The notes beneath the pieces are model-generated. The model was not told the origin of the DNA and did no database searches. It was given only the letters and a program-made list of their open reading frames with translations. Position numbers and translations under genes: made by a program. Shown here one piece after another: positions 12,627 through 27,180 of a stretch of 64,000 nt of DNA (within the stretch, counting starts at the first letter, position 1; every line of letters starts with the position of its first letter). The stretch lies in the NCBI RefSeq assembly GCF_039533165.1, contig NZ_BAAATA010000012.1. One strand, written 5' to 3'. This DNA comes from Streptomyces thermolineatus (GTDB taxonomy: Bacteria > Actinomycetota > Actinomycetes > Streptomycetales > Streptomycetaceae).

Positions 12627-12732
12627 GCCCCGCCCCCCTGCGACGCCGTTCCGGGACCGCCCGGAACGGCGCTACCCTGCTCCCGTCGCGCTGCAGTGGG
12701 GCAGCGGGCGCTGTACGTCGTCGGGGGGTGGC

Positions 12733-14619
12733 GTGGCCGGGTCAGGTATTCGGCCGACCGAGGCGGGGGACCCGCAGTCGTTCGGCCCTTATCGCGTGCT
12801 CGGGCGCCTCGGCTCCGGGGCCATGGGACGGGTGTACCTGGCGTCCTCGCCCGGCGGCCGGCTGGTCGCGGTGAAGACGCTGCTGGCCGAGGCGGCGGTC
12901 GGCGACGCCGACCGGGAGCGGTTCGCCCGCGAGGTGAAGCTCGCCCGCCGGGTCAAGGACATCCACACCGTGGACGTGGTCGCCGCCGACGTCGAGGCGC
13001 GGCCGCCGTGGATGGCCACCGAGTACGTTCCCGCACCCTCGCTCGCCGAACTGGTGCAGCAGGCCGGCACGCTGCCCGCCGGCGCCGTCGAGCGGGTGGC
13101 CGCCGGCGCGGCGGAGGCCCTGCTCTGCCTGCACCGGGCGGAGGTCGTCCACCGGGACGTCAAACCGTCCAACATCCTGCTGCCGCCGGACGGCCCGCGC
13201 CTGATCGACTTCGGCATCTCCCACGCGGCCGACACCACGCGGACCATGCTCACCCTGGGCACCATCGCCTTCACCTCGCCCGAGCAGGCGAGCGGCGAGC
13301 CGAGCACCACGGCCTCGGACGTCTACTCGCTGGGCGCCACACTGTTCCACCTCGCGGTCGGCCGACCGCCCTACACCGAGGTGGGCGACACGCTGCGGCT
13401 GCTGTCGCAGGTCTCGCGGGGGCAGGTGGACCTGTCCGGCCTGCCGCCCGAACTGGAACCGCTGATCCTCCCGTGCCTGAGGACGGACCCGGAGGAACGC
13501 CCGGAGCCCGCGCGGATCGTCGGGCAGCTCGCCGGCGCCCTCGCCGGCGGGCCGGCGTCGCCGGGCGGCACGGGCTGGCTGCCCCCGGCGTGGGCCCGGC
13601 TCGTCGACGAGTACGGGCGCCGCGGGCAGGAGCTGCAAAGGGGCGCGGCCCGGGCGTCGTCGCCGGACGCACCGACCGAGAACCTCAGGAACCGCGGGGC
13701 CTCCGGCTCCCCCACGCGCCCCTACACCCGCCTCCACGACCACCCGCGCCAGGACGAGGAGCAGCAGCGCCCGGACGAGGAGCAGCAGCACCCGGACGGG
13801 GGCCGTCCGCGCCAGGACGGGGGCCGTCCGCGTCCGCAGGGGGTTCGGCCACGCCCCGAGAGGGTGCGTCCGAGCACCGGGACCGGCTCCCCGGCAGGGG
13901 CCGTCCCCGCGGCCGCCGAGGAGACCCGGAGGACCGAGAAGGCGCAGAAGGGCTGGGGAGGCGTTCTCCTCCTCGTCGCGGCCGTCTGGTTCTTCGCCCT
14001 CTACCAGCAGAACCAGGACGACGACCCGTCAGCGGGGGCGGCGAGCACGGGCTCGAGTGCGGGTTCGAGCGCGGGCACGGGCTCGCAGGGGTACTACACG
14101 CCGCCGCCCTCGCCCACCCCCGATCCGGAGGACCTCGCCTTCCGGGCGGTGAGCCCCGGCGACTGCCTCGACGCCTACCAGGACGGCGAGGACTGGAACA
14201 CCGACGTGCCCCGGACCGTCGACTGCGACGCGGCCAGCGCCTACTTCTGGGTGTCCGACACCTCGGACTCCTTCGGCTCGGACTGCCCGACGGGCGCGGG
14301 GCGCAGCTACTGGTCCCACGTGGGGACCACCGGCAGCACCACGCTGTGCGTGCAACGCCAGTTCCGCGAGGGCCAGTGCTTCGTGGTGAAGCAGTCGGAC
14401 AAGGGCGCCGTCCAGGACGGGCTGCTCACGAACGTGTGGAACTGCGACGCGGACACCGTCCCGTCGGGCTACAACCAGATACTCCGGATCACCGGCTACT
14501 ACAAGGCGCCGAAGACGATCCCGCGCGGGTTCTGCTCCGAGGACCAGTACGACCGGACCTCCTACTGGACCTGGGAGGTCGACGACGGCAAGTCCGTCCT
14601 GTGCACCACGGTCGCCTGA
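12733..14619 (+). CDS. Ser/Thr protein kinase with Cys-rich extracellular C-terminal domain
   Basis: The Gly-loop GRLGSGAMGRVYLA, VAVK, HRDVKPSNILL and DFG are present. A Pro/Arg-rich linker and a TM segment (VLLLVAAVWFFALY) follow. The ~200-aa extracytoplasmic domain contains 8 Cys. Confidence 0.8.
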   Translation: MAGSGIRPTEAGDPQSFGPYRVLGRLGSGAMGRVYLASSPGGRLVAVKTLLAEAAVGDADRERFAREVKLARRVKDIHTVDVVAADVEARPPWMATEYVPAPSLAELVQQAGTLPAGAVERVAAGAAEALLCLHRAEVVHRDVKPSNILLPPDGPRLIDFGISHAADTTRTMLTLGTIAFTSPEQASGEPSTTASDVYSLGATLFHLAVGRPPYTEVGDTLRLLSQVSRGQVDLSGLPPELEPLILPCLRTDPEERPEPARIVGQLAGALAGGPASPGGTGWLPPAWARLVDEYGRRGQELQRGAARASSPDAPTENLRNRGASGSPTRPYTRLHDHPRQDEEQQRPDEEQQHPDGGRPRQDGGRPRPQGVRPRPERVRPSTGTGSPAGAVPAAAEETRRTEKAQKGWGGVLLLVAAVWFFALYQQNQDDDPSAGAASTGSSAGSSAGTGSQGYYTPPPSPTPDPEDLAFRAVSPGDCLDAYQDGEDWNTDVPRTVDCDAASAYFWVSDTSDSFGSDCPTGAGRSYWSHVGTTGSTTLCVQRQFREGQCFVVKQSDKGAVQDGLLTNVWNCDADTVPSGYNQILRITGYYKAPKTIPRGFCSEDQYDRTSYWTWEVDDGKSVLCTTVA

Positions 14620-14626
14620 CGGGCCC

Positions 14627-14672
14627 CGGGGCCGTCCGCCCGGGGCCGTCCGGGGCCGTCCGGGGCCGTCCG
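14627..14672. repeat. 10-bp tandem repeat x4 (CCGGGGCCGT)
   Basis: The repeat was read directly immediately after the Ser/Thr kinase stop codon. Confidence 0.8.
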
Positions 14673-14765
14673 GCGTGCCGCCGCGCATGCCCGTCGCGGC
14701 GGCGGGTACGACCCCTCCCGTGCGGGGGCGTCGCGGAAGCGGCCGAGGAGTGAGGGGTTTCGGAA

Positions 14766-15140
14766 GTGATTCGAAAGCTGCAGGCGGTCGCGCTGGACTG
14801 CGCCGACCCGGTACGGCTTGCGGAGTTCTACGCGGACCTGCTCGGCGGCCGGGTGGTCCCGGACCCGGAGGACCCCGGCTGGGTCGAGGTGCACGGGTTC
14901 GAGGGGACGCCGCTGGCCTGCCAGCGGGTGGACGGCTACCGGCCGCCCGAGTGGCCCGGCCAGGAGCGCCCGCAGCAGATCCACCTGGACTTCGACGTGG
15001 ACGATCTCGACGGGGAGGAGAAGCGGGCCCTCGCCCTCGGTGCGACCGTGCTGGAGCGGACGGACCGGATCCGTCCGGAGGCCAACTGGCGGGTCTACGC
15101 GGATCCGGCCGGCCATCCGTTCTGCCTCTGCCTCCACTGA
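14766..15140 (+). CDS. VOC (glyoxalase/bleomycin-resistance) family protein
   Basis: The ORF is 124 aa. AVALDCADPVRLAEFYADLLGG...HLDFDVDDLD is typical of VOC family small proteins. It uses a GTG start. Confidence 0.6.
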   Translation: MIRKLQAVALDCADPVRLAEFYADLLGGRVVPDPEDPGWVEVHGFEGTPLACQRVDGYRPPEWPGQERPQQIHLDFDVDDLDGEEKRALALGATVLERTDRIRPEANWRVYADPAGHPFCLCLH

Positions 15141-15198: not shown

Positions 15199-15816
15199 CT
15201 ACGACGGCACGGCCGGCTCCTTGCGGGGCCGGTCACCCGCCGCGGACCCGCAGAGCCTGTCCACGTGCATGTCGAGGATCCGCCGGGCCTCGTCCTGGCC
15301 GAGCTGCCCGAGGAGCACCTGGACGGTGAGGCCGTCGGCGAGGGCGAGCAGCGTGCGCGCCTCCAGTTCGGCGTCCACGGCAGTGCCGGCGGCTTCCCGG
15401 ACCAGGCGGGCGAGCAGGCCCTGCACCGCCGGGTAGCCGTCCCGGAGGATCCCCGCCATCGCGGGGGTGACGGCGGCGCGGGCGACGAACGCCAGCCAGA
15501 CCTGCGCCTCCGGGCGCCGCTCGGCGCCGAGCAGGGCGAGGTCCCCGGCCACGCGGGCCAGGGCCGGGGCGGGCGGTGACGGTTCGTCGGCGGCCGCGCG
15601 CACCCTGGCGGCGAACGCCTCGCTGACGTGCGCCAGGGCGAGGGCGAGCATCTCGTCCTTGGTGCGGAAGCTGCGCTGGACGGCCCCCATGGACATCCCG
15701 GCCTGCCGGGCGACGTCGCGCAGGGTGACGCCCTCCAGTCCGTGCTCGTCGGCCAGCGCGTACACCGCCTCGATCACCCGGCGCCGTCGCTGTTCGTGGT
15801 CCACCTGCTTGGGCAT
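15199..15816 (-). CDS. TetR family transcriptional regulator
   Basis: The N-terminal HTH reads RRRVIEAVYALADEHGLEGVTLRDVARQAGMSMGAVQRSFRTKDEML. The gene is divergent from the amidase gene. Confidence 0.85.
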   Translation of the reverse strand: MPKQVDHEQRRRRVIEAVYALADEHGLEGVTLRDVARQAGMSMGAVQRSFRTKDEMLALALAHVSEAFAARVRAAADEPSPPAPALARVAGDLALLGAERRPEAQVWLAFVARAAVTPAMAGILRDGYPAVQGLLARLVREAAGTAVDAELEARTLLALADGLTVQVLLGQLGQDEARRILDMHVDRLCGSAAGDRPRKEPAVPS

Positions 15817-15855
15817 GCCGCCTCCACCGCCCGCCGCTCCGGTCCCGTTCTTTTC

Positions 15856-15904
15856 CGATGCAAGTGCATCGGATACCAGTGTACGATCCGATGCACTCGC
15901 ATCG
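15856..15904. promoter_or_regulatory. two tandem palindromic operator-like sites in TetR/amidase divergent intergenic region
   Basis: CGATGCA-AG-TGCATCG at 15856..15871 is a perfect 7-bp inverted repeat. CGATGCA-CT-CGCATCG at 15889..15904 is a near-identical second site. Both lie between the TetR start (15816, minus) and the amidase GTG (15927). Confidence 0.55.
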
Positions 15905-15926
15905 GAAAACGGAGGGCCGCGTCACC

Positions 15927-17381
15927 GTGGGAACCGAACTCTGGAAGTGGACCGCCGCCGAACTGGCCGCCGCGGTCGCCTGCGGGGAGATCAGCGCCGC
16001 AGAGGTCGTCGAGAGCCACCTCGCCCGGATCGCCGAGGTCAACCCGGTGGTCAACGCCGTGACGCAGACGCTCGCCGACACCGCGCGCCGCGATGCCGAG
16101 GACCTCGACCGGCGGCGCGCGGCCGGCGAGCGGCCGGGCCCGCTGGCCGGCGTGCCGTTCACCGTGAAGGAGAACATCGGCATCGGCGGGGTGCCGACCA
16201 CGCACGGCCTGGCGCACTTCCGGGGGATGCGGGCCGGGGAGGACGCCCCGCCGGTGGCCCGGCTGCGGGCGGCGGGCGCGATCCCCGTCGGGCACAGCAA
16301 CATGCCCGACCTGACCGTGGGCGGGATGCACCCGCGCAGCGAACTGTTCGGGGAGACGCGCAACCCGTGGCACCCCGGCCGCACCCCCGGCGGCAGCAGC
16401 GGCGGCGACGGGGCCGCCGTGGCCTCCGGCATGGCACCGCTGGGACTGGGCAACGACTCGGGCGGCTCGATCCGCATCCCGGCCGCCTTCTGCGGTACGG
16501 CCGGGCTGAAACCCACGTACGGCCGCTTCCCCTCCGACCATCGCATCGGCCCGGACGACCCGGCCCTGGCCTCCCAGTTCGTGCCGGTGGACGGCCCCCT
16601 CGCCCGCACGGTCGGCGACCTGCGCCTGGCCTACGAGGCACTGGCCGGAACGGACCCGCGCGACCCGCGCGCCGTCCCCGTGCCGCTGTACGGGCCGGAA
16701 GCCGGGACGCGGCCGAGGGTGGCGGTGGTGGCCGACCCCGGCGGCCAGGGGGTGCACCCCGGCGTGCGGGCGGCGGTCGCCGCCGCGGCGGACGCCCTCC
16801 GGGACGCCGGGTACGAGGTGGAGGAGATCCCCGACGTCCCCCGCATGGCGGAGACCCTCGCGGCGTACGGCCACATGGTCATGACGGAGTTCGCGCTCGC
16901 CTGGCCGCGGATCCGCACGGTACTGCCCGAAAGCAGCCGCGCCTACATCGAGATGTCGATGGAACGGACCCCGCCCGTCGAACTCCCCGAGTACCTGCGG
17001 CTGACCGGTGTCCGCCTGGGCCTCCAGCGGGACTGGGCCCGCCTCTTCCAGCGGTACCGGCTGGTCCTCGGGCCGGTGTTCACCGAGCCGCCGGTCGAAC
17101 CGGGCCTGGAGTCCGGCAGCACGGACGGGCACGAGCGGGTGACCCGCGCGATGCGGCTGTGCACCGCGACCAGCTTCGTCGGGCTTCCGGCGGTGGCCGT
17201 CCCCGGCGGGGTCCTCGACGGGCTGCCGCAGGGGGTGCAGCTGATCGGGCCGATGTACAGGGAGGACCTGTGCCTGGCCGGCGCGGAGGCCGTCGAACGG
17301 CGGATCGGCGTGCTGACACCCGTCGAGCCCCGGCCGACCCCCGTCGAGCCCCGGTCCGGCGGCACTGCCCTGCTCGCGTGA
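15927..17381 (+). CDS. amidase (amidase-signature family)
   Basis: The signature GGSSGGDGAAVASGMAPLGLGNDSGGSIRIPAAFCG is present. The GTG at 15927 has a GGAGGG RBS 10 nt upstream. Confidence 0.8.
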   Translation: MGTELWKWTAAELAAAVACGEISAAEVVESHLARIAEVNPVVNAVTQTLADTARRDAEDLDRRRAAGERPGPLAGVPFTVKENIGIGGVPTTHGLAHFRGMRAGEDAPPVARLRAAGAIPVGHSNMPDLTVGGMHPRSELFGETRNPWHPGRTPGGSSGGDGAAVASGMAPLGLGNDSGGSIRIPAAFCGTAGLKPTYGRFPSDHRIGPDDPALASQFVPVDGPLARTVGDLRLAYEALAGTDPRDPRAVPVPLYGPEAGTRPRVAVVADPGGQGVHPGVRAAVAAAADALRDAGYEVEEIPDVPRMAETLAAYGHMVMTEFALAWPRIRTVLPESSRAYIEMSMERTPPVELPEYLRLTGVRLGLQRDWARLFQRYRLVLGPVFTEPPVEPGLESGSTDGHERVTRAMRLCTATSFVGLPAVAVPGGVLDGLPQGVQLIGPMYREDLCLAGAEAVERRIGVLTPVEPRPTPVEPRSGGTALLA

Positions 17382-17429
17382 CCGCCCCCCGGCTCGCGTG
17401 ACCGCCCCCCGCTCGCGTGACCGCCCTCC
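17372..17429. repeat. 19-bp tandem direct repeat x3 (GCTCGCGTGACCGCCCCCC) overlapping amidase stop codon
   Basis: Units lie at 17372..17390, 17392..17410 and 17411..17429. The third unit is slightly diverged (CCCTCC). The first unit contains the amidase TGA. Confidence 0.8.
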
Positions 17430-17447
17430 GGCCGGTGCCGCCCCGCC

Positions 17448-17690
17448 TCACCCCGGTGCGGGCGCCTCCGGCTCCAGCAACCGGGGAACCTCCCGCCGCA
17501 GCAGGTCGACGAAGGCGCGCACCGCGCCCCGGAACTCCACCCGGGCGAACGCGACCGCGTCCCGCCGCCAGGGCTCCCGGAACGACACCGCCCGGGCCGC
17601 CCGGCGGGCCTGCACCGCGCTGCGCACGGCGAGTTCGGCGTTCGGCAGGAGGAGCACGGAACCGGACGGGTGCTGGGCGTCCACCTGGTC
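17448..17690 (-). pseudogene. LysR-family regulator C-terminal fragment (remnant)
   Basis: The minus-strand translation reads PSGSVLLLPNAELAVRSAVQARRAARAVSFREPWRRDAVAFARVEFRGAVRAFVDLLRRE. This fits the LysR C-terminal co-inducer domain ending. No N-terminal HTH is present. The upstream frame overlaps other genes. Confidence 0.4.
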
Positions 17691-17873
17691 GGACCGCACG
17701 TGTCGGAGATGATCACGCAGAGCCAGCTGATCGTCGGCCGGCATGCCGAGCCCGCCGACGTGGCCCGGCACATCCACCCCCACCCCACGCTCTCCGAGGC
17801 CGTCGGCGAGGCGTTCCTCAGCCTGGCCGGCCGCGGACTCCACCAGCAGGCGCCCCGGCTCAGCGCTCCGTGA
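17640..17873 (+). pseudogene. dihydrolipoamide dehydrogenase (pyridine nucleotide-disulfide oxidoreductase) C-terminal fragment
   Basis: The ORF 17670..17873 translation VHLVGPHVSEMITQSQLIVGRHAEPADVARHIHPHPTLSEAVGEAF matches the dimerisation-domain C-terminus (HAHPTLSEA motif) of Lpd-type flavoproteins. The rest of the ~460-aa protein is absent. Confidence 0.5.
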
Positions 17874-18084
17874 GCGGCGCGGCGGACGCGGCGAAGGCGA
17901 CGAACGCCGTCCACGCCTCCGGGGAGAACGCGAGCGTCCCGCCCTCCCGGTCCTTGGAGTCCCGCACGCGGACGGCACCGGGGGCCACGGCGACCTCCAC
18001 GCACTCCCCGCCGTCGCCGCCGCTGTAACTGCTCTTGAACCAGGTCGGTTCAAGGACTGCGCCTTCGGACCGATCGTTGCTCAC
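17860..18084 (-). CDS. DUF397 domain protein
   Basis: The ORF is 74 aa. WFKSSYSGGDGGECVEVAV...VRVRDSKDREGGTLAFSPEAWTAF is the classic DUF397 pattern. Confidence 0.8.
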   Translation of the reverse strand: MSNDRSEGAVLEPTWFKSSYSGGDGGECVEVAVAPGAVRVRDSKDREGGTLAFSPEAWTAFVAFAASAAPLTER

Positions 18085-18896
18085 AGTTCCCCCAATACCT
18101 GCTCGATGAGGCTCACCGACTCTTCCGGGCTGAGGGCCTGGGCGCGCAGGATCCCGTAGCGCTGCATGAGCACACTCACCTCGTCCTGCTCGGAGATCAG
18201 GAAACTGCCGCGCTGGCCCTCGACGTAGGCCAGGTTACGGCGATCCTGGGTTTCCAGCAGCACCATCGGGCCTTCCAGTCCGGCATGCGTCTCCCGACAG
18301 GTCGGCATGACCTGGAGGGAGACGTTGCGCATCCGCGAGCATTCCAGCAGACGCCTCAACTGCCCCTCCATGACGGCGGAACCACCGATCGGTCGTCGGA
18401 CCACCACCTCCTCGATCACGAAACCCAGTACCGGGCGCGGCGTACGCGTCAGCAGAGTCTGGCGGTCGAGTCGCGCCGCAACGCGCCGCTCCACCTCGTC
18501 GTCGTCGGGCGGAGGACAACTGCCGCCGACCACCGCCCGGGCGTACTCCTCGGTCTGGAGCACGCCCGGGACGGTCTGGTTGCTGTACAAATACATGCTC
18601 ACCGCGTCCGCCTCCAGCATCGCGAAGTCCTGGAACCAGGACGGGTAGCGCGCCTGGGCGAGGAAGGATGCGCCGATCCTGAGCACGCCGCGTGCGTCCA
18701 GTGCCTCGTCGGCCTGGTCCACGAAGCCCTGCTGGGGGATCCGCCGGCCCTGCTCGACGGCGGCCACCATCGCCTCCGAGTACCCCACCCGCTCGCCGAG
18801 TTCGGCGCGGGAGAGCCCCGCACGCCCTCTGAGCAGCTTCAGTTGGCTGCCGAAGTACTTGAGTGTCGTCGAGCCCGCGTCGTTCCTGTTTCCCAT
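18081..18896 (-). CDS. XRE-family HTH regulator with DUF5753 C-terminal domain (WhiJ-like)
   Basis: From the ATG at 18896 the HTH reads LKYFGSQLKLLRGRAGLSRAELGERVGYSEAMVAAVEQGRRIP. A DUF5753-like C-terminal domain follows. There is a 4-bp overlap with the downstream DUF397 gene. Confidence 0.8.
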   Translation of the reverse strand: MGNRNDAGSTTLKYFGSQLKLLRGRAGLSRAELGERVGYSEAMVAAVEQGRRIPQQGFVDQADEALDARGVLRIGASFLAQARYPSWFQDFAMLEADAVSMYLYSNQTVPGVLQTEEYARAVVGGSCPPPDDDEVERRVAARLDRQTLLTRTPRPVLGFVIEEVVVRRPIGGSAVMEGQLRRLLECSRMRNVSLQVMPTCRETHAGLEGPMVLLETQDRRNLAYVEGQRGSFLISEQDEVSVLMQRYGILRAQALSPEESVSLIEQVLGEL

Positions 18897-19050: not shown

Positions 19051-19587
19051 GTGCTGATGAAGACTGACATTCCCTCTTCCGTGACTCCGTGTTTCGCCAT
19101 CACCTCCAGCGAGCGGGCGTTCCCCCGGCATCCGTACTCCGTGCGGGCCGCACGGGACCACGTCGCCGCCGTGGTCTCCCGGCTCGCCCCACCCCCGCCG
19201 GGACCTCCGGCTCCTCCGGCCGGTGACGACCGGCTGGACGACGTCCTGGTGTGCGTCTCGGAGCTGGCCACCAACGCCCTGGTCCACGGCGCCCCGCCGG
19301 ACTGCGGTTTCCTGCTGCGGATCACCCTGGTCCGCACGTCCGCCACCGGGGCGGCGACCCTGCGCGTCGAGGTGCACGACGACGGGAAGGACCTGCCGGA
19401 GCAGGCCCCGGACCGGCTCTCTGTCTCCGCCCCCGGCCGGGAGGGCGTGCCCGGGACCGGCGGCCGCGGACTGCTGCTCGTCTCCGCCCTCGCCGACGCC
19501 TGGGGCGTCTCCCGCTTCCGCACCGGCCCGGGCAAGGCGGTCTGGGCCGAGTTCCGGTTCCCCCGGGGCGCGGGCGGAGAGCACTGA
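19051..19587 (+). CDS. ATP-binding protein (HATPase_c, anti-sigma-factor/Ser kinase-like) divergent from WhiJ-like regulator
   Basis: LDDVLVCVSELATNALVHG (N-box) and GTGGRGLLLVSALADAWGV (G-box) are present. The arrangement is the typical third member of XRE/DUF397/ATPase loci. Confidence 0.75.
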   Translation: MLMKTDIPSSVTPCFAITSSERAFPRHPYSVRAARDHVAAVVSRLAPPPPGPPAPPAGDDRLDDVLVCVSELATNALVHGAPPDCGFLLRITLVRTSATGAATLRVEVHDDGKDLPEQAPDRLSVSAPGREGVPGTGGRGLLLVSALADAWGVSRFRTGPGKAVWAEFRFPRGAGGEH

Positions 19588-20263: not shown

Positions 20264-20269
20264 ACGACG

Positions 20270-21202: not shown

Positions 21203-22231
21203 CTAGTAGTAACGCAGCAGCGCGCCCTGGCCGCGATGGTCGGAGTACTGCGGGGCCAGGGTGCCGGCGCCGCCGGCCGACTGGCGGGCGAGCGCGTAGT
21301 CGACGGTGACCTGGTTGTAGACGGCGTAGGTCTTCACAAACAGGAAGTCGATCCGGGTACTGGCGTGGGTCCAGTGATTGGCGTCCAGGCAGTTGTAGTC
21401 GCCCCCGCAAGCACGGTACATCGCGTCCTTCCAGCCCAGGTTCGCGACGGTGGTGCCGCAGGTACCGGGGTAGTCGACGTTGGTGCCCTTGTACCAGCAC
21501 TCCCAGGCGACCTGCCCGGAGGAGTTGAGGGTGCCGTCGAGGTGGTTCCAGTCCCCCGCCATGATCTGCATCGACGCCGAGCCGAGGCCCTGGACCGCCG
21601 AGCTGATGCTCTTCGTGTTCTCCCACGCGCAGTCGGCGTCGGGGTTGGACGCGTTGTCCGCGACGACGGGCAGGTGGACGGATGCCACGTTGATGAACTT
21701 GCTCGTGTCGAGGTCGTCCTTGAGGCGCAGCACCAATGCGTACCAGTTGCTCAGAGTGGTGCAGTCCGCGTCCGCGTTCGCCCGCGTCTTGAGCTGGACC
21801 TCCTGCATGGTGCCGCCGACGTACGACAGCCGACCGGTCCGGTACGCGATGGCGGATCCGCCGGTCTCCGCCGTCTCGTAGCAGTGGTAGTCGAGCCCCC
21901 CGGTGCTGTTCTGCAGGTCGGTCACGAACTGCTGGCAGCTCGGGACGCCCAGCGACGCCGTGCCGGCCTCCTGCAGCGTCACGATGTCCGGCACGTACGC
22001 GACCCGGGCCGGGTCGGTGATGTAGGCGATGAACTCGCGGTAGTCGGTGCAGGGGCTGGTGCCGCAGCTGCTCGAATCGGTGCGCATGTGGTGCGTGTTG
22101 AGGTTCCAGACCTGCAGCCGGTCGGTCGGCGCGCCTGTCTGGCCGGCGGCGTACGCGGTCCCGGCGTGCACCGTCACGATGCCGAGCGCGCCCATCAGTG
22201 CCGCGACGATGAAGGTCAGCAGAGACCTCAT
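21203..22231 (-). CDS. secreted endonuclease/exonuclease/phosphatase (EEP) family protein
   Basis: The signal peptide is MRSLLTFIVAALMGALGIVTVHAGTAYAAG. LQVWNLNTHHM, IVTLQE, MAGDWNHLD and SDHRG are EEP catalytic motifs. The 5' end of the gene is low in GC. The stop codon lies directly at the IS boundary. Confidence 0.65.
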   Translation of the reverse strand: MRSLLTFIVAALMGALGIVTVHAGTAYAAGQTGAPTDRLQVWNLNTHHMRTDSSSCGTSPCTDYREFIAYITDPARVAYVPDIVTLQEAGTASLGVPSCQQFVTDLQNSTGGLDYHCYETAETGGSAIAYRTGRLSYVGGTMQEVQLKTRANADADCTTLSNWYALVLRLKDDLDTSKFINVASVHLPVVADNASNPDADCAWENTKSISSAVQGLGSASMQIMAGDWNHLDGTLNSSGQVAWECWYKGTNVDYPGTCGTTVANLGWKDAMYRACGGDYNCLDANHWTHASTRIDFLFVKTYAVYNQVTVDYALARQSAGGAGTLAPQYSDHRGQGALLRYY

Positions 22232-22574
22232 GGACCGCTTGGCCCGTCGTACGCGTCGGTCCGCCGGCACTGCCGGGGCGACCGCCGCCACCCCTCTGAA
22301 TGCCTTGTTCATGTCAATGTTCACGAGCGGTCAGTCTGATGGACCGTCAAAGACAATGGCAACAGGACTGGCACGTTCCGCGCAAAGCCTGTCGGCGGGG
22401 CGAGCGGGGGTGACCGGGTGCCCCGCTCGTGCACGGCCCACGGCCGACCCGGCAGTCGTACCGGCGGCCGTAGCCCCGTCGAAGGCGCCGCTGGAAGCCG
22501 GTTTCCGGGCATGGGCCCCGAGGCACGGCGGAAACCGGTTGGCAGAGGCCGGAGTCCACGGCCAGGATCACGGT

Positions 22575-23177
22575 ATGACGGTTTTCCTGGCGACCGGCCG
22601 GATGGTGCTGCGCCCGTTCACCGGGGCCGACGCGGACCACTTGGCCGCCCTCGACGGCGACCCGGAGGTCATGCGGTTCCTCGACGGGGGCGGCCCGACC
22701 TCCCCCGAGGCGGTTCGGGCGCACGTCCTGCCCCGGCTGATGTCCCGCCACGCGTGGCCCGCGGTCCACGGCTACTGGGCCGCCGAGGCCGGGGGTGGCG
22801 AGGGGAGCGGCGGAGGCGCCGGCCGCGCCGGGGAGTTCCTGGGCTGGTTCGAGTTCCGGCCGCTGGACGAGGACGGCGGCGGCGGGACGGTCGAGCTCGG
22901 GTACCGGCTGCGCCGGGCGGCCTGGGGGCTCGGACTGGCCACCGAGGGGGCCCGGGCCCTGCTGCACAAGGGATTCACCGAGCTCGGCGTGGAGCGCGTG
23001 ACGGCCACCACGATGGCGGTCAACGTCGGCTCCCGCCGGGTGATGGAGAAGGCCGGGCTGCGGTACGTGCGCACCTTCCACCAGGAGTGGCCGCACCCGC
23101 TGCCGGGATCCGAGCACGGCGAGGTGGAGTACGCGCTGACCGCGCAGGAGTGGCGGCGGGAGGCCCCGCCCGCCTGA
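22575..23177 (+). CDS. GNAT family N-acetyltransferase (RimJ/RimL-like)
   Basis: MTVFLATGRMVLRPFTGADADHLAALDGDPEVMRFL is typical of the Acetyltransf_3 N-terminus. The acetyl-CoA motif RRAAWGLGLATEGARALL is present. Confidence 0.75.
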   Translation: MTVFLATGRMVLRPFTGADADHLAALDGDPEVMRFLDGGGPTSPEAVRAHVLPRLMSRHAWPAVHGYWAAEAGGGEGSGGGAGRAGEFLGWFEFRPLDEDGGGGTVELGYRLRRAAWGLGLATEGARALLHKGFTELGVERVTATTMAVNVGSRRVMEKAGLRYVRTFHQEWPHPLPGSEHGEVEYALTAQEWRREAPPA

Positions 23178-23343: not shown

Positions 23344-25500
23344 GTGGGACGATCAGTGACTTGCACCACACTGTGCGTTCCTGCGCCCGCGCGTGTCCGA
23401 GGGGAGACAAGCAGCGTGCCCGAACCACCCGAACACCCCGTCGGCATCGAGGGGATAGAGGCGCTCTACCGCGAGTGCCGGCAGCGTACCGGCAGCACCC
23501 GGCGACGGCGGGAGGGGGACCTGCCGGTCATCGTGCTGGTGGGCCGCCGGGGCAACGGCAAGACCGCCGTGCTCAAGTGGCTCCGGCACCGCGGGTCGCG
23601 GCGCCCCTGCGCGATGTACGACTTCCGCGACGCGGGCGCGGTGCGGCCCCACGAGGTGGCCCGGCAGATCGCCTTCGGCCTGTCCCAGCGCCTGCACCGG
23701 CAGCCTCCGCTGTACTTCCCGCGGCTGCAGCTGGGGCTGCTGGCGGTCGCCCCGGGGCTGACCCTGGACGGCTCCGACGCCCGGCTCGCCGGCGCACAGC
23801 TGCGGGAGGCGCTGCGGCGCGACGAGGCGCGGGGCCAGTTCGCCGACCAGGTGTCGAACGCGGTCGGGTTCCTGCAGGAGCTCAACCTGCTGCCCGTCCC
23901 CGGTGTCGCGTTCGCGGCCGGCCTGCTCCTGCGCGGCCGGTCGGTGCTGCCGCCCAGGGCCGTGTGGAGGACCGGCCTGGCCTGGTACAGCCGGCACCGC
24001 CAGCACGCGCCGCTGGACGCGCTGGTGCACCTGAACAAGCTGAGCAGGAGCACCTCGCCCGCCGACCTGGCCGAGGTCGACGAGCAGTTGTGCAGGGCCT
24101 TCCTCGCCGACCTGCGCGCCGGCTACCGGCGCGGCCGGCGGGACCGCAACTGCACGGTCCTGCTGGACAACGTCGACAGCCCCGGGGGCCGCCCGTTCCT
24201 GGACCTGCTGGTGCGGCTGCGCGACACCGACGCGCAGGACGGCCTGGACCCCGACCCGCTGGTCGTCCTCGCCACCGCCTCGACGATCCGCAGGGTGCCC
24301 GGAGTGTCCTCCGCCGGGCCGGGGCTGCCGCGGATCCGGCAGGCGGAGGCCGTCTCCTACCGGGACTGGGCCGACAGCCGGCCGGCCCGCCCGCACGACA
24401 GCACCTGGCGCTGGTACCCCGTGCAACTGCCCGACCTGACCGCCGCCGAGGTCTCCCGGCTGGGCGCGCGGCTGGCGCCGCGGCTGCCGGAGGCCACCCC
24501 GCTGGTACACCGGCTGACCTACGGCCACCCGTGGAGCGTGCACCTGCTGCACGGGGCGGTCTCGGAGATCATCGGCCAGGGCGGCGGCGACCCGGAGCTG
24601 CGCAGGATCCTGGAGCGGGAGGTGGAGCCGCAGGACGGCGCGGGCGGCACTGGCGCCCCGCACGGCGCGGGCGGCACCGGCGGCGCGGTGCGGCTGGAGC
24701 AGCACGCCCTGCACCACCTGCTGCAGGACCTGGGCGACCAGCAGCGCAGGGCCCTCGTCCTGTGCTCGGCGGCGCGGGAGTTCGACACGGCCACCGACGC
24801 CGGGCTGCTGACGCGCTTCACCGAGCAGACCCAGCGGACGCTGGGTCAGGAGGTCCGCTCCCGGCTGTGGCTCGTCGACCCGGTCCCGGAGGACGCGGGC
24901 ACCCGCGGCGGCAGGGGGTCCGGCTACCTCCTCGGCCCGGCGGCGCCGCACCTGCTGAGCAGCGGTCCGGTCATGCACACCTGGCTGCGGCTGCTCCTGC
25001 TCGGGGAGCTGGCCGGCCTTCCGGACTCCAGCCCGCTGAACTGGACCACGGCGCACGAGCAGCTGTGCGGCTGGCACCGGGACCACGACCGGCCCGTGGA
25101 CGCCCTGTACCACCGGCTGGCGCTCGGCGGGCTCGACGAGGTCGTCGAGCACCTGTCCGCCCGCATGTGGGAGCTGCCCGGCACCGCGGCCTGGCTGTAC
25201 GAGCTGTACGCGGTCACCGCGGCCCCGATGCGGCGGCCCGTGGACCCGGAGGTCTCGGCCGCCGAGCGGGCGGACGCCCTGGCGCGCGAGCTGGCGCCGC
25301 GGTCCTTCCGCGACAGCCGCTCCCTCGCCGTGCTGACCGCCGCGCTGTGGCTGGCGGCCGACCCGCGCAACCGCCTGCCCAACGCCGCTCCCGAGCTGAA
25401 CTACACGATCAGCTCGATGTTCCTGGAACTGGCCGTGACCTCCGACGCCCGCATCGCCGGGCTGCGGCACGAGGCCGCCCGGTACGACGTCCACCTGTGA
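23344..25500 (+). CDS. STAND-type P-loop NTPase (NB-ARC-like core) with C-terminal helical domain
   Basis: The Walker A is VIVLVGRRGNGKTAVLKWL and the Walker B is CTVLLDNVD. Sensor-like LVVLATASTIRR and a GxP-like HRLTYGHPWSVHLL follow. The ~330-aa helical C-terminal region has no recognisable effector domain. The GTG at 23344 has an AAGGAAG RBS. The ORF is open from 23269. Confidence 0.6.
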   Translation: MGRSVTCTTLCVPAPARVRGETSSVPEPPEHPVGIEGIEALYRECRQRTGSTRRRREGDLPVIVLVGRRGNGKTAVLKWLRHRGSRRPCAMYDFRDAGAVRPHEVARQIAFGLSQRLHRQPPLYFPRLQLGLLAVAPGLTLDGSDARLAGAQLREALRRDEARGQFADQVSNAVGFLQELNLLPVPGVAFAAGLLLRGRSVLPPRAVWRTGLAWYSRHRQHAPLDALVHLNKLSRSTSPADLAEVDEQLCRAFLADLRAGYRRGRRDRNCTVLLDNVDSPGGRPFLDLLVRLRDTDAQDGLDPDPLVVLATASTIRRVPGVSSAGPGLPRIRQAEAVSYRDWADSRPARPHDSTWRWYPVQLPDLTAAEVSRLGARLAPRLPEATPLVHRLTYGHPWSVHLLHGAVSEIIGQGGGDPELRRILEREVEPQDGAGGTGAPHGAGGTGGAVRLEQHALHHLLQDLGDQQRRALVLCSAAREFDTATDAGLLTRFTEQTQRTLGQEVRSRLWLVDPVPEDAGTRGGRGSGYLLGPAAPHLLSSGPVMHTWLRLLLLGELAGLPDSSPLNWTTAHEQLCGWHRDHDRPVDALYHRLALGGLDEVVEHLSARMWELPGTAAWLYELYAVTAAPMRRPVDPEVSAAERADALARELAPRSFRDSRSLAVLTAALWLAADPRNRLPNAAPELNYTISSMFLELAVTSDARIAGLRHEAARYDVHL

Positions 25501-25584
25501 TCGGCGGTCCGGCGGACCGCCGGACCGCGCGCCCCGCCCGGCAGTGAACCGCTCGCCGGGCAGCGCACCGAAGGGAGCGCCCCG

Positions 25585-27132
25585 ATGACCCCGTCCAGGT
25601 CCGTGCCGGACCCTCTGTCCGCCTTCGACGCCCCCTACGACCCCGTCCCTCCCTGGTGGAGGGGGTGGCGCGGGACCGTGGCGGTGCTGCTCGCCCTCGC
25701 ACTGGCCGCCGCCGGAGCCGTGTGGCTGGCCCTGCCGGAGGACACCTCCTGCGCCGAGGGGGTGGCGCGGGTCTCCCCGGAGGGGGAGTGCGTCGGGCTG
25801 ACCGACGGCAGCCACGCCTTCTCCTCCGACCTCGAGCACGTCTTCGGCCTGATCCGGAAGGAGAACGAGCGGGTCGTGGAGCAGGCCGGCAAGCCCGGCG
25901 GGGCGCCGTACGTCAGCGTCGTCTACCTGATGCGGATGGTCCCGGGCCCCGGTGACACCAACACCCTCGCCTCCGTCCGGCACGAACTGCAGGGCGCCCA
26001 CATCGCCCAGTACCAGGCCAACCACGCCGGGGTGCGCGGCGACTCCCCGCAGATCAGGCTGCTGCTCGCGCACACGGGGGCGGGCAAGCAGGAGCGGGAC
26101 TTCACCCTGGAGCGGATCCGGGAACGCAGGAAGCAGGACCGGATCGTGGCGGTCGCGGGCCTGGGCACCAGCACCGACGCCACCGAGACCACCGTGCGCC
26201 GGCTCATCCGCACCGGGCTCCCGGCCGTCGGCGCGGTGATCACCTCCAACAGCCTGGAGGGGATCAACGGCCTGGTGCGGGTCGCCCCCTCCAACGCGGA
26301 CGAGGCCGCGGCCGCCGCGCACTACCTGAAGGAGTCGCACCCGAGGGCGAAGGTGCTGCTCGTGCGGGACCGCCGCAAGGACGACCACTACAGCAAGACC
26401 CTCGCCGAGTCCTTCGAGAAGAACTTCCCCGCCGACCGGATCGTGCAGCGGATGGAGTTCGACTCCTCCCGCAGCAGCGTGTCGACGTACTTCACCATCC
26501 AGACGGCGAACCTGTGCCAGGCGAAACCGGACGTGGTCTTCTTCGCCGGCCGCGGGGTCGACCTGCCCAGGATGCTCAGCCCGCTGTCCGGCCGGCACTG
26601 CAAGGACCGCGAGCTGACGGTGATCTCCGGCGACGACGCCTCGCAGACCGCCCAGGCCGAGGGGTTCGACAAGGTCACCGAGGCGCTGCAGCGGGGCAGG
26701 ATCCGTCTGGTCTACACCGGGCTGGCCCACCAGGACGCGTGGAAGAAGGAACCGGGCGCCTTCGACCCGGTGGCGGTCGGCGTGTTCGGCAAGGACGGCC
26801 GCTTCCGGAAGGCGTTCCCCCGCGAGGGGCTCGACGACGGCCAGGCGATCATGGGGCACGACGCCGTCGTCACCGCGGTCGCCGCGATCCGCGAGGCCAC
26901 CCGCGGGGTCCCGGCCCAGAAGATCACCGGGAGCGACGTCATGCAGCTGCTGTCCGCCCTCCAGGGCGAGACCGCCGTGGCCGGTGCCAGCGGGCTGATC
27001 AGCCTGGCGCCCAACGGCAGCCCGGTCGACAAGGCGATCCCGGTCATCGAGATAGACGGCCGCGGCCGGGTGTCCACCGTGGCGGTCTCCTCCCGCACCG
27101 GCGAGCCGCCGCGCGGCACCCCCGGCGGGTGA
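25585..27132 (+). CDS. membrane-anchored periplasmic-binding-protein type 1 (Leu/Ile/Val-binding/Peripla_BP_6-like) domain protein
   Basis: An N-terminal cytoplasmic segment precedes a single TM (GTVAVLLALALAAAGAVWLAL). The extracytoplasmic domain has PBP1 features (IVAVAGLGTSTDA, AVGAVITSNSLEG, KVLLVRD, DVVFFAG). The RBS is AAGGGAG. Confidence 0.6.
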   Translation: MTPSRSVPDPLSAFDAPYDPVPPWWRGWRGTVAVLLALALAAAGAVWLALPEDTSCAEGVARVSPEGECVGLTDGSHAFSSDLEHVFGLIRKENERVVEQAGKPGGAPYVSVVYLMRMVPGPGDTNTLASVRHELQGAHIAQYQANHAGVRGDSPQIRLLLAHTGAGKQERDFTLERIRERRKQDRIVAVAGLGTSTDATETTVRRLIRTGLPAVGAVITSNSLEGINGLVRVAPSNADEAAAAAHYLKESHPRAKVLLVRDRRKDDHYSKTLAESFEKNFPADRIVQRMEFDSSRSSVSTYFTIQTANLCQAKPDVVFFAGRGVDLPRMLSPLSGRHCKDRELTVISGDDASQTAQAEGFDKVTEALQRGRIRLVYTGLAHQDAWKKEPGAFDPVAVGVFGKDGRFRKAFPREGLDDGQAIMGHDAVVTAVAAIREATRGVPAQKITGSDVMQLLSALQGETAVAGASGLISLAPNGSPVDKAIPVIEIDGRGRVSTVAVSSRTGEPPRGTPGG

Positions 27133-27180
27133 CGCGGCCGGACGGCCCGGCGCGCACCGTGGCGGTCCGGGCGGCGGCCG

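What the first reader, a model, noticed from the sequence alone, without database searches (positions are those of the whole stretch)
12627..27180. A ~14.5-kb accessory island splits the glgX-treY-treZ trehalose operon
glgX (treX), treY and treZ are classically contiguous and co-oriented in actinobacteria such as Mycobacterium. Here glgX and treY are adjacent and treZ is co-oriented, but 14.5 kb lie between treY and treZ. The inserted block has hallmarks of acquired or rearranged DNA. These include an IS5-family element with a decayed transposase and two truncated gene fragments (LysR and Lpd C-termini). A 19-bp tandem triplication sits at a junction. There are also low-GC stretches (19.9-20.3 kb and the 5' end of the EEP gene) and signalling/defence-flavoured cargo (a WhiJ-like triad and a STAND NTPase).
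Basis: partly seen in the sequence, partly recalled or inferred. Interest (0 to 1): 0.7.

Follow-up and report, generated by a model that had tools for sequence, protein, structure and literature searches.

The report
Old variable gap between treY and treZ
The 14.5 kb between two trehalose genes in this Streptomyces thermolineatus window is real, but it is the local version of a gap found in every Streptomyces sampled, mostly inherited from an ancestor, with only about 2.6 kb swapped in recently beside a dead insertion sequence.

Summary
glgX (7714-9852) and treY (10071-12626) are adjacent, and treZ (ORF from 27181) is co-oriented 14.55 kb downstream. The decayed IS5 element, the LysR and Lpd C-terminal remnants, the 19-bp tandem repeat, the low-GC stretches and the WhiJ-type triad are all there.

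The reading as one acquired island that split a classical operon is only partly supported.
1. All 12 Streptomyces-type genomes examined have treY and treZ separated, by 0.76 to more than 10 kb. S. venezuelae also has them apart (SVEN_5896 and SVEN_5890). Kitasatospora (21 of 21) and Kribbella (18 of 18) keep them adjacent.
2. The sister lineage Streptomyces sp. SCUT-3 (about 96% nucleotide identity) carries the same 14.3-kb interval, collinear. Cargo proteins are 80-99% identical, most of them as conserved as the flanking genes.
3. There is no integrase, tRNA gene or border repeat. GC is 73.4% in the interval and 74.5-74.9% in the flanks.
4. Some contents are old residents. LysR-Lpd remnants match intact pairs in other species' gaps. 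The NTPase and binding-protein pair also precedes treZ in Streptantibioticus.

Only 19805-22413 is a clear lineage-specific replacement: a DUF5713 gene, an IS5 pseudogene and a secreted EEP-family gene, at 68.5% GC.

Verdict: ordinary genome plasticity at a long-standing variable locus. Interest is low.

The parts
7714..9852 (+). glgX (treX) glycogen debranching enzyme, left conserved flank
   Evidence: TIGR02100 987 bits, above the cut-off. The exact protein is GAA2488627.1 of S. thermolineatus. It is 99.7% identical in SCUT-3.
10071..12626 (+). treY malto-oligosyltrehalose synthase, left border of the interval
   Evidence: TIGR02401 840 bits. It is 98% identical in SCUT-3.
12645..12670 (+). 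Perfect 11-bp G+C-rich hairpin 19 nt after the treY stop; a candidate transcript end for glgX-treY (inferred)
   Evidence: RNA fold of 12620-12700: -42.7 kcal/mol, z = -3.87, 0 of 200 shuffles fold as well. It has no T-run, so the simple terminator scan did not list it.
12733..14619 (+). Ser/Thr protein kinase (cargo, shared with SCUT-3)
   Evidence: Pkinase 131 bits. The AfsK-like NCBIfam hit is far below its cut-off. It is 92% identical in SCUT-3.
14766..15140 (+). Glyoxalase_6 domain protein (cargo, shared)
   Evidence: PF18029 102 bits; 96% identical in SCUT-3.
15199..15816 (-). TetR-family regulator, divergent from the amidase gene (cargo, shared)
   Evidence: TetR_N and TetR_C_6; 97.6% identical in SCUT-3.
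15858..17381 (+). Amidase (cargo, shared)
   Evidence: PF01425 325 bits; NF005687 464 bits, above the cut-off; 96% identical in SCUT-3.
17368..17430 (+). 19-20-bp tandem repeat, about 3.3 copies, that includes the amidase stop codon; it lies at the left edge of a 419-bp indel relative to SCUT-3
   Evidence: Tandem Repeats Finder, score 103. SCUT-3 has two copies. Collinearity with SCUT-3 breaks at 17406/17407.
17493..17573 (-). Remnant of the C-terminus of a LysR-family regulator
   Evidence: tblastn with the intact LysR of L004 and L007: 27 aa, 56-58% identity, E = 3-4e-4, a weak match.
17661..17873 (+). Remnant of the C-terminus of a dihydrolipoyl-dehydrogenase-like flavoprotein (Lpd)
   Evidence: Pyr_redox_dim positions 57-109 of 110. 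It is 85% identical over 61 aa to the intact Lpd in the treY-treZ gap of S. coffeae (L004) and 81% to that of S. piniterrae (L007). SCUT-3 keeps a different Lpd remnant, residues 287-310.
17860..18084 (-). DUF397 protein, part of the WhiJ-type triad
   Evidence: PF04149 85 bits.
18081..18896 (-). WhiJ-like XRE regulator (HTH_31 + DUF5753)
   Evidence: DUF5753 175 bits; 98% identical in SCUT-3.
19051..19587 (+). HATPase_c_2 anti-sigma-factor-like kinase, divergent from the WhiJ-like gene
   Evidence: PF13581 48 bits; 88% identical in SCUT-3.
19696..19804 (+). 5' remnant (about 36 codons) of the ankyrin-repeat gene that is intact in SCUT-3; it marks the left breakpoint of the replacement
   Evidence: tblastn with SCUT-3 Ank residues 1-49: 67% identity at 19696-19842. 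Nucleotide collinearity ends at 19804.
19805..21206 (-). 1.4-kb unit of a DUF5713 gene (19919-20263, +) plus an IS5-family pseudogene copy (about 20276-21206, -)
   Evidence: The unit is 84% identical over 1,410 bp to S. microflavus linear plasmid NZ_CP054927.1, where it is bounded by CTAG on both sides. The outer end CTGGGGCCTGTTGTGAATG resembles the IS terminus CTAGGCCGTGCATCGAAAG. DUF5713 scores 145 bits. The transposase frame is broken.
21203..22231 (-). Secreted endonuclease/exonuclease/phosphatase-family protein; its TAG stop lies in the CTAG at the IS end
   Evidence: The Exo_endo_phos hit is below the cut-off. A signal peptide is visible in the translation. Only 72 homologues were found in 5.8 billion proteins, one of them in another named Streptomyces. 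None is on plasmids. The gene is absent from SCUT-3.
19805..22413 (.). Lineage-specific replaced segment; in SCUT-3 and HB2AG this position holds Ank, a questin-oxidase-like gene and a glyoxalase gene (2.65 kb)
   Evidence: blastn of the window against SCUT-3. GC is 68.5% against 73-75%. The segment is present in the second S. thermolineatus-type strain, NPDC059637.
22575..23177 (+). GNAT acetyltransferase (Acetyltransf_3), shared with SCUT-3
   Evidence: 107 bits; 80% identical in SCUT-3.
23416..25500 (+). P-loop NTPase of about 695 aa, STAND-like, family uncharacterised
   Evidence: Walker A GxxGxGKT and Walker B LDNxD are invariant in six homologues. Pfam hits are sub-threshold only. There are no PADLOC or PDB relatives. 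It is 96.7% identical in SCUT-3 and 48% in Streptantibioticus.
25585..27132 (+). Membrane-anchored type-1 periplasmic-binding-protein-like sensor, always paired with the NTPase gene
   Evidence: 99 homologues, named by their sources as ABC substrate-binding proteins or Peripla_BP_6. An N-terminal transmembrane helix is visible. The pair is conserved in L098-L101 and in at least 14 of 33 metagenome loci. In Streptantibioticus parmotrematis the pair lies directly upstream of treZ.
27181..29079 (+). treZ malto-oligosyltrehalose trehalohydrolase, right border of the interval (annotated start in the related strain corresponds to 27232)
   Evidence: TIGR02402 744 bits; 95% identical in SCUT-3.
29068..31585 (+). 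MarR + MFS transporter indel just downstream of treZ; it lies outside the reported interval but belongs to the same pattern of flux
   Evidence: It is absent from SCUT-3, which has 74 bp there, and present in NPDC059637. An 18-bp duplication that includes the treZ stop sits at the junction.

Best explanation
The treY-treZ junction is a long-standing variable locus in Streptomyces, not the site of one island insertion.

The adjacent arrangement, kept in Kitasatospora, Kribbella and many other actinomycetes, was broken early in the Streptomyces-type lineage. The smallest configuration seen is a single FHA/DUF1707 gene between the two genes. Since then different lineages have gained, lost and decayed different genes at this position.

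In the S. thermolineatus / SCUT-3 clade the interval had already reached about 14 kb before the two lineages diverged. At that stage it held a kinase, a glyoxalase, a TetR-amidase pair, a decaying LysR-Lpd pair, a WhiJ-type triad, Ank, a questin-oxidase-like gene, a second glyoxalase, a GNAT, and the NTPase and binding-protein pair. It has been inherited vertically since.

In the S. thermolineatus lineage about 2.65 kb (the 3' part of Ank, the questin-oxidase-like gene and the glyoxalase) was replaced. The replacement is about 2.6 kb of foreign-looking DNA: a DUF5713 + IS5 unit also found on a Streptomyces linear plasmid, plus a rare secreted EEP-family gene. The IS copy has since decayed.

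Insertions are tolerated here, by inference, because glgX-treY and treZ are separate transcription units. There is a strong hairpin after treY, and treZ has its own developmental regulation in S. venezuelae.

Shown: synteny, identities, breakpoints and remnants. Inferred: the order of ancient events, the transcriptional independence in this species, and the mechanism of the replacement.
For: 1. Gaps by group: Kitasatospora-type 21 of 21 at 84 bp or less; Kribbella 18 of 18 at 26 bp or less; Streptomyces-type 10 of 10 at 764 bp or more (median 5.3 kb). S. microflavus has 6.5 kb and S. peucetius 8.2 kb. S. venezuelae has treY SVEN_5896 and treZ SVEN_5890.

2. Content turnover: 43 gene families in the interval across 12 genomes. 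Only FHA/DUF1707, a GNAT-like protein of about 300 aa, LysR and Lpd are shared beyond the sister pair. FHA/DUF1707 recurs in 9 distinct genomes, and in L001 it is the only gene in the gap.

3. The window is collinear with SCUT-3 at 93-97% nucleotide identity across the interval. Cargo proteins are 80-99% identical (most 88-99%) and flank proteins 95-99.7%. NPDC059637 has the same layout at 99%.

4. Polarity of the replacement: the window keeps the first about 36 codons of the SCUT-3 Ank gene up to the breakpoint.

5. The DUF5713-IS5 unit is shared with plasmid NZ_CP054927.1, where it is bounded by CTAG. The EEP gene is rare and patchily distributed. The segment has 68.5% GC.

6. LysR-Lpd remnants in the window, a different remnant in SCUT-3, and intact pairs in the gaps of L004 and L007.

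7. The order FHA, NTPase, binding protein, treZ, AFG1, RibD_C in Streptantibioticus matches the treZ side of this clade.

8. No tRNA gene, integrase or border repeat. There is a hairpin after treY.
Against: - Sampling of Streptomyces is small: 12 genomes plus one literature case, chosen by TreY or TreZ similarity.
- No outgroup carries the kinase-to-amidase block, so its origin and date are unknown. It could have entered as one piece just before the SCUT-3 / S. thermolineatus split.
- GC3 and codon-usage scores of interval ORFs are slightly lower than the rest of the window (Mann-Whitney p about 0.02). That test included some spurious ORFs.
- Transcriptional independence of treZ was not tested in this organism. 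treZ follows the binding-protein gene by only 48-99 bp and could be co-transcribed with it.
- The left target duplication of the DUF5713-IS5 unit is imperfect in the window (CTGG against CTAG). The replacement mechanism is therefore unresolved.
Confidence: 0.8

Rival explanations
1. A single, recently acquired genomic island of about 14.5 kb inserted between treY and treZ and split a formerly contiguous operon.
For: Adjacent treY-treZ is common outside Streptomyces. The interval contains an IS5 remnant, gene fragments and some lower-GC DNA. None of its intact genes occurs in the interval of any non-sister genome.
Against: - The same interval occurs in SCUT-3 and HB2AG at 93-97% nucleotide identity, with most cargo as conserved as the flanks.
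- There is no integrase, tRNA gene or border repeat.
- GC is 73.4% against 74.5-74.9% in the flanks.
- The LysR-Lpd remnants and the NTPase and binding-protein pair next to treZ have counterparts at the same locus in other species and genera.
- Every Streptomyces-type genome examined already has a split.
Confidence: 0.05
2. A chromosomal rearrangement (inversion or translocation) moved treZ and its neighbourhood away from treY. The interval would then be ordinary chromosome brought in by the rearrangement rather than accreted cargo.
For: There are no hallmarks of site-specific integration. Codon usage of most cargo is native. In Streptantibioticus treY is not within 8 kb upstream of treZ.
Against: treZ stays co-oriented with treY and on the same side in all 12 Streptomyces-type genomes, with gap sizes forming a graded series from 0.76 kb upward. 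The contents differ in almost every genome. That pattern fits repeated local gain and loss better than one rearrangement.
Confidence: 0.07
3. The cargo is functionally tied to trehalose and alpha-glucan metabolism. For example, the NTPase and binding-protein pair, or the kinase, would sense sugars and control treZ or treY, so the arrangement would be a selected supra-operon.
For: The NTPase, the binding protein and treZ are co-oriented with 84-bp and 48-99-bp spacers, and the same order occurs in Streptantibioticus parmotrematis. Type-1 binding-protein domains commonly bind sugars or amino acids (established knowledge). Ser/Thr phosphorylation of GlgE-pathway enzymes is reported in the literature cited in PMC5042117.
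Against: The NTPase and binding-protein pair occurs without treZ in S. marincola, S. paludis and Kitasatospora, and in all 33 metagenome loci. The other cargo is absent from every other species' interval. No experiment bears on it.
Confidence: 0.08

Closest known systems
Streptomyces venezuelae glgX2 / treY / treZ layout (SVEN_5898, SVEN_5896, SVEN_5890; PMC5042117)
   Same: glgX and treY are close together. treZ is co-located but separated from treY by several unrelated genes. According to that paper, treZ is regulated separately by a sporulation-specific factor.
   Different: There are five intervening locus tags there, against 13-14 genes (14.5 kb) here. The contents were not compared directly because the S. 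venezuelae sequence was not fetched.
Contiguous treX(glgX)-treY-treZ clusters of Kitasatospora, Kribbella and Mycobacterium
   Same: The same three enzymes in the same order and orientation. In Kitasatospora the HEPN_SAV2148 gene also lies upstream of glgX.
   Different: There treY and treZ abut or overlap, with gaps of -32 to +84 bp in 39 of 39 genomes. Here they are 14.5 kb apart. The Mycobacterium arrangement is from general knowledge and was not tested here.
Chromosomal hotspots of gene flux between conserved core genes (concept of Oliveira, Touchon and Rocha, 2017; cited from memory, not read here)
   Same: Conserved flanks (glgX-treY on one side, treZ on the other) with different accessory genes in nearly every genome. 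Few or no self-mobility genes. IS debris and pseudogenes are present.
   Different: The core flanks are two genes of one pathway that are adjacent in related genera. Turnover here is slow enough that sister species at about 96% identity share 11 of 13-14 genes.
IS5-family insertion sequences of Streptomyces plasmids (for example the intact copy on S. goshikiensis plasmid NZ_CP115939.1)
   Same: 86% nucleotide identity over about 930 bp, a DUF4096 + DDE transposase, and the terminal sequence ...CACGGCCTAG.
   Different: The window copy is a pseudogene. It travels with an adjacent DUF5713 gene as a 1.4-kb unit bounded by an extra IS-end-like sequence. Among the records examined, that unit was seen elsewhere only on S. 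microflavus plasmid NZ_CP054927.1.
WhiJ-associated gene triads of Streptomyces (XRE/DUF5753 regulator, DUF397 protein, HATPase_c_2 anti-sigma-like protein)
   Same: All three Pfam families are present in the usual arrangement. DUF397 lies just downstream of the regulator and overlaps it. The HATPase gene is divergent.
   Different: Nothing distinctive was found. In strain HB2AG the triad is partly deleted.

Membership tests
Integrative genomic island (site-specific) | Integrase or recombinase gene inside the island | tested here: not met
   Pfam and NCBIfam scans of all interval ORFs found none. The only mobility gene is a broken IS5 DDE transposase.
Integrative genomic island (site-specific) | Insertion next to a tRNA gene and/or flanking direct repeats (att sites) | tested here: not met
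   No tRNA gene in the 64-kb window. No direct repeat of 9 nt or more between the two borders; the null distribution typically gives 8-9 nt.
Integrative genomic island (site-specific) | Base composition or codon usage distinct from the host | tested here: inconclusive
   GC is 73.4% in the interval against 74.5 and 74.9% in the flanks. GC3 of the real cargo genes is 0.86-0.98. Mann-Whitney p is about 0.02, but the test included spurious ORFs. Only 19805-22413 stands out, at 68.5%.
Integrative genomic island (site-specific) | Presence or absence polymorphism among close relatives | tested here: not met
   The interval is present and collinear in SCUT-3, HB2AG and NPDC059637. No empty site was found.
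Contiguous glgX-treY-treZ operon | All three enzymes present and co-oriented | tested here: met
   Equivalog-level NCBIfam hits for all three, all on the + strand.
Contiguous glgX-treY-treZ operon | treY and treZ adjacent, as one transcription unit | tested here: not met
   They are 14,554 bp apart. A strong hairpin follows treY. Transcription itself cannot be tested with these tools.
Chromosomal gene-flux hotspot | Conserved flanking core genes with different accessory content across genomes | tested here: met
   12 genomes hold 43 gene families, and only 4 families are shared beyond the sister pair. Gaps range from 0.76 to more than 10 kb. The sample is small.
IS5 family insertion sequence | DDE transposase with a DUF4096 N-terminal region | tested here: met
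   DUF4096 79 bits. DDE_Tnp_1 and DDE_Tnp_1_2 fragments are sub-threshold. It is 65% identical over 291 aa to an annotated IS5-family transposase.
IS5 family insertion sequence | Intact transposase, terminal inverted repeats and a target-site duplication | tested here: not met
   The frame is broken by 5-bp and 1-bp deletions. The inner end is degenerate. The outer ends resemble each other at about 11-13 of 19 positions. The flanking sequence is CTGG on one side and CTAG on the other.
WhiJ-type triad | XRE/DUF5753 regulator with adjacent DUF397 and HATPase_c_2 genes | tested here: met
   DUF5753 175 bits, DUF397 85 bits, HATPase_c_2 48 bits, all above their cut-offs.
STAND NTPase | P-loop NTPase core with Walker A and Walker B motifs | tested here: met
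   GxxGxGKT and LDNxD are invariant in six homologues.
STAND NTPase | Membership of a recognised STAND family (NACHT, NB-ARC, nSTAND) at the curated threshold, and STAND domain architecture | tested here: not met
   AAA_22 scores 21.1 bits against a cut-off of 27, AAA_16 17.6 against 32.6, and nSTAND6 13.9 against 27.7. There are no NCBIfam, PADLOC or PDB relatives.

The most novel reading that the evidence does not exclude
The treY|treZ junction may be a true, genus-wide hotspot of gene accretion in Streptomyces. It would have been founded by the insertion of an FHA/DUF1707 gene and kept open because treZ came under separate developmental control. As a sub-case, the P-loop NTPase and membrane-anchored binding-protein pair, an uncharacterised two-gene module conserved across Streptomycetaceae and fused elsewhere to kinase or caspase domains, may have been recruited in some lineages to control treZ.
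Probability: 0.2. Interest if true: 0.4.

Novelty: new member of a known kind. Interest (0 to 1): 0.22.

Why it matters
It matters mainly as a correction. Using Mycobacterium as the reference for 'classical' synteny overstated how unusual this locus is. In Streptomyces a split treY/treZ is normal, and this window shows the largest version among the genomes sampled here.

There is modest value for comparative genomics. The locus is a clean, easily anchored example of slow gene turnover between two conserved pathway genes. It has datable events: independent decay of a LysR-Lpd pair, an IS-associated 2.6-kb replacement, and an IS5 copy carrying a passenger DUF5713 gene that is shared with a linear plasmid.

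The work also flags an uncharacterised, widely conserved pair of a P-loop NTPase and a binding-protein-like sensor.

Tried and rejected
- Border repeats (att-like) at 12.6 and 27.15 kb: none beyond chance.
- tRNA genes and Rfam families in the whole window: none.
- Consensus promoter and terminator scan of 9.6-29.5 kb: uninformative, as expected for 75% GC DNA. It found only the MarR promoter-like site.
- PADLOC scan for the 'defence-flavoured' cargo: only generic kinase-domain hits for the kinase, and nothing for the NTPase, the binding protein, the GNAT or DUF5713. The defence reading is not supported.
- PDB sequence searches for the NTPase (single sequence and profile) and for the binding protein: only P-loop noise or nothing.
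A single-sequence run was not attempted.
- EEP protein against plasmids: no match.
- Exact look-up of the S. thermolineatus TreZ protein P0124: not on record, so the complete S. thermolineatus genome could not be compared.
- Metagenome scan with the binding-protein alignment, to test linkage to treZ: 33 loci, none with treZ. This argues against general functional coupling.
- The mechanical ORFs 6562-7935, 14562-15236, 17448-17978 and the 376-aa form of the GNAT gene were rejected as over-extended or spurious, by comparison with annotated relatives.

Full report
**Source and gene map.** The window is about 75% G+C. Its GlgX protein is an exact match to Streptomyces thermolineatus GAA2488627.1 and to Streptomyces sp. 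NPDC059637. Mechanical ORFs are unreliable at this G+C content, so genes were called by third-position G+C and checked with Pfam and NCBIfam and with annotated relatives. The map is:
- glgX 7714-9852 +
- treY 10071-12626 +
- Ser/Thr kinase 12733-14619 +
- Glyoxalase_6 protein 14766-15140 +
- TetR regulator 15199-15816 -
- amidase 15858-17381 +
- a 19-20-bp tandem repeat over the amidase stop, 17368-17430
- LysR remnant 17493-17573 -
- Lpd remnant 17661-17873 +
- DUF397 protein 17860-18084 -
- WhiJ-like XRE/DUF5753 regulator 18081-18896 -
- HATPase_c_2 protein 19051-19587 +
- DUF5713 protein 19919-20263 +
- IS5-family pseudogene, about 20276-21206 -
- secreted EEP-family protein 21203-22231 -
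- GNAT acetyltransferase 22575-23177 +
- P-loop NTPase 23416-25500 +
- membrane-anchored type-1 binding-protein-like gene 25585-27132 +
- treZ, ORF from 27181 to 29079 +
- MarR regulator and MFS transporter downstream of treZ

**The observation.** The three trehalose and glycogen genes score above the equivalog cut-offs, and 14,554 bp separate treY from treZ. Two qualifications apply. The 'STAND NTPase' label rests only on a P-loop with sub-threshold Pfam hits. The low-GC stretches (63-70%) are matched elsewhere in the window. No duplication is present at the two borders. The window has no tRNA gene and no Rfam family.

**Is a split unusual?** A scan of one genome per species with TreY gave 80 loci. 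I located GlgX, TreY, TreZ and all cargo proteins in them by tblastn.
- In Kitasatospora-type genomes (21 of 21) and Kribbella (18 of 18), treY and treZ abut or overlap (-32 to +84 bp).
- In all 10 nearest Streptomyces-type genomes (Streptomyces, Actinacidiphila, Wenjunlia; they share the order HEPN_SAV2148, glgX, treY) the two genes are separated by 0.76 to more than 10 kb, with a median of 5.3 kb.
- Two mainstream species reached through TreZ homologues show the same pattern: S. microflavus 6.5 kb and S. peucetius 8.2 kb.
- In S. venezuelae the published locus tags are glgX2 SVEN_5898, treY SVEN_5896 and treZ SVEN_5890. [quoted passage not shown]

A split treY/treZ is therefore the norm in this genus.

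**What fills the gap elsewhere?** Gene calls and Pfam scans of the gaps, and clustering of all gap proteins from 12 genomes, gave 43 families. Only four are shared beyond the sister pair:
- an FHA/DUF1707 gene on the opposite strand, found in 9 distinct genomes and the sole gap gene in L001;
- a GNAT-like protein of about 300 aa;
- a divergent LysR-Lpd pair.

None of the window's intact cargo genes occurs in any non-sister interval. This is the signature of a locus with continual gain and loss between conserved flanks.

**Close relatives.** TreZ has one cluster of relatives at about 93% identity, and then drops to 77% or less. That cluster includes Streptomyces sp. SCUT-3 (complete genome CP046907.1), HB2AG, DJ and NPDC059506. 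The SCUT-3 locus, joined from L086 and L087, is collinear with the window at 93-97% nucleotide identity, and its treY-treZ interval is 14.3 kb. Cargo proteins are 80-99% identical:
- kinase 92%, glyoxalase 96%, TetR 97.6%, amidase 96%
- DUF397 protein 91%, WhiJ-like regulator 98%, HATPase 88%, GNAT 80%
- NTPase 96.7%, binding protein 98.8%

The flanking proteins are similar: GlgX 99.7%, TreY 98%, TreZ 95% and the copper amine oxidase 96.6%. NPDC059637 is 99% identical and has the same layout throughout. The interval predates the split of these lineages.

**Differences from SCUT-3**.

(i) 17407-17825, 419 bp against 90 bp in SCUT-3. This holds the LysR and Lpd C-terminal remnants. The two C-termini face outward, as expected if the middle of a divergent LysR-Lpd pair was deleted. 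SCUT-3 retains a different piece of Lpd (residues 287-310). Intact LysR-Lpd pairs lie in the treY-treZ gap of S. coffeae (L004) and S. piniterrae (L007), and are 81-85% identical to the window's Lpd remnant. The pair is therefore an old resident that decayed independently in the two lineages. The tandem repeat at the left edge has three copies here and two in SCUT-3.

(ii) 19805-22413, 2.6 kb at 68.5% GC. This replaces the 2.65 kb of Ank, a questin-oxidase-like gene and a glyoxalase gene found in SCUT-3 and HB2AG. The window still has the first about 36 codons of Ank up to the breakpoint, so the SCUT-3 state is ancestral.

The incoming DNA begins exactly at the end of a 1.4-kb unit, DUF5713 plus IS5. 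That unit is 84% identical over 1,410 bp to S. microflavus linear plasmid NZ_CP054927.1, where it is bounded by CTAG on both sides. Its outer end resembles the IS terminus. This suggests an IS5 copy that mobilises a passenger gene through an extra end (inference).

The other IS end lies in the CTAG that supplies the TAG stop of the EEP gene. The EEP protein has a signal peptide. It has only 72 homologues in 5.8 billion proteins, one in another named Streptomyces and the rest in scattered actinomycetes or metagenomes. None is on plasmids. The transposase is broken by 5-bp and 1-bp deletions. This 2.6 kb is the one segment that behaves like recently acquired DNA. How it entered (transposition followed by deletion, or recombination) is unresolved, because the left flank reads CTGG rather than CTAG.

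(iii) 29068-31585, MarR + MFS, just outside the reported interval. It is absent from SCUT-3, and an 18-bp duplication that includes the treZ stop sits at the junction.

**The treZ-proximal pair.** The 515-aa protein has no Pfam hit itself. Its 99 homologues are named ABC substrate-binding proteins or Peripla_BP_6 by their sources, and it has an N-terminal transmembrane helix. In every context examined it follows a P-loop NTPase of about 695 aa: S. paludis, S. marincola, Kitasatospora sp. HPMI-4, Streptantibioticus parmotrematis and at least 14 of 33 metagenome loci.

In Streptantibioticus the order is FHA/DUF1707, NTPase, binding protein, treZ, AFG1, RibD_C. This matches the treZ side of the SCUT-3 and S. 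thermolineatus locus. This part of the 'island' is therefore probably older than the genus-level divergence in that lineage.

Elsewhere the pair lies in unrelated neighbourhoods and never next to treZ, so a general functional link to trehalose metabolism is unlikely. The binding-protein domain is also found fused to a protein kinase (P0200) and to a caspase-family protein (P0201). That points to a sensor role (inference).

**Composition and mobility hallmarks.** The interval has 73.4% GC against 74.5% and 74.9% in the flanks. The real cargo genes have third-position G+C of 0.86-0.98, which is typical of the host. A rank test gave p of about 0.02 but included spurious ORFs. No integrase was found. 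PADLOC gave only generic kinase-domain matches. An 11-bp perfect hairpin lies 19 nt after the treY stop (z = -3.9). It is a plausible end for the glgX-treY transcript and would explain why insertions downstream are tolerated (inference).

**Conclusion.** The coordinates and features are correct, but the interval is not an island that recently split an operon. It is the S. thermolineatus-clade version of a locus that is split and variable in every Streptomyces sampled. It is a mosaic of old residents, decayed genes and clade-specific cargo inherited vertically since before the SCUT-3 / S. thermolineatus divergence. One IS-associated 2.6-kb replacement is specific to S. thermolineatus.

I rate confidence in this reading at 0.8. 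The main gaps are the small Streptomyces sample, the unknown origin of the kinase-to-amidase block, and the lack of transcript data.

Noticed in passing
window 3771-5051 (-): A HEPN_SAV2148 + DUF5919 gene lies upstream of glgX here and in all 31 Streptomyces-type and Kitasatospora-type loci (66-84% identity). This linkage is much more stable than the treY-treZ junction. It gives weak PADLOC hits to PDC-M34B.
   Followed up: partly
window 17368-17430 and 29048-29087: Two short tandem duplications each include a stop codon, one of the amidase gene and one of treZ. Each sits exactly at an indel junction relative to SCUT-3, with 3 against 2 copies and 2 against 1 copy. This suggests slippage or microhomology repair at the breakpoints.
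   Followed up: partly
window 29068-31585: A MarR + MFS transporter pair just downstream of treZ is present in S. thermolineatus-type strains and absent from SCUT-3, which has 74 bp there. An AT-rich palindrome, TAGGTATTTAAACATACCTA, and the only sigma-70-like promoter match of the region lie upstream of the MarR gene.
   Followed up: partly
window 23416-27132; L098-L101; L103-L127: A P-loop NTPase of about 695 aa and a membrane-anchored type-1 binding-protein-like gene of about 510 aa form a conserved, uncharacterised two-gene module across Streptomycetaceae and in soil metagenomes. In S. paludis it sits beside DUF2397/DUF2398/DUF3323 genes and a type ISP restriction enzyme. The binding-protein domain also occurs fused to kinase and caspase domains.
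   Followed up: partly
window 19805-21206; L095 3001-4408: An IS5-family element and a neighbouring DUF5713 gene form a 1.4-kb unit. The unit is shared at 84% identity with S. microflavus linear plasmid NZ_CP054927.1 and is bounded there by CTAG, as if the IS mobilises a passenger gene through an additional end.
   Followed up: partly
L088 about 20600-20720 (Streptomyces sp. HB2AG), corresponding to window 18735-19275: Strain HB2AG has a deletion of about 540 bp. It removes the 5' ends of the divergent WhiJ-like and HATPase_c_2 genes, so the triad is decaying in that strain.
   Followed up: no
L009 12419-22418 (Streptomyces sp. CA-111067): No treZ lies within 10 kb downstream of treY, and the ORFs there have lower third-position G+C (0.83-0.92). 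This may be a larger or more foreign insertion at the same junction.
   Followed up: no
window 6562-7935 (-): The long mechanical ORF that overlaps the glgX start is over-extended. Relatives annotate a 289-aa protein with no Pfam family (about 6562-7431), conserved next to the copper amine oxidase gene.
   Followed up: no
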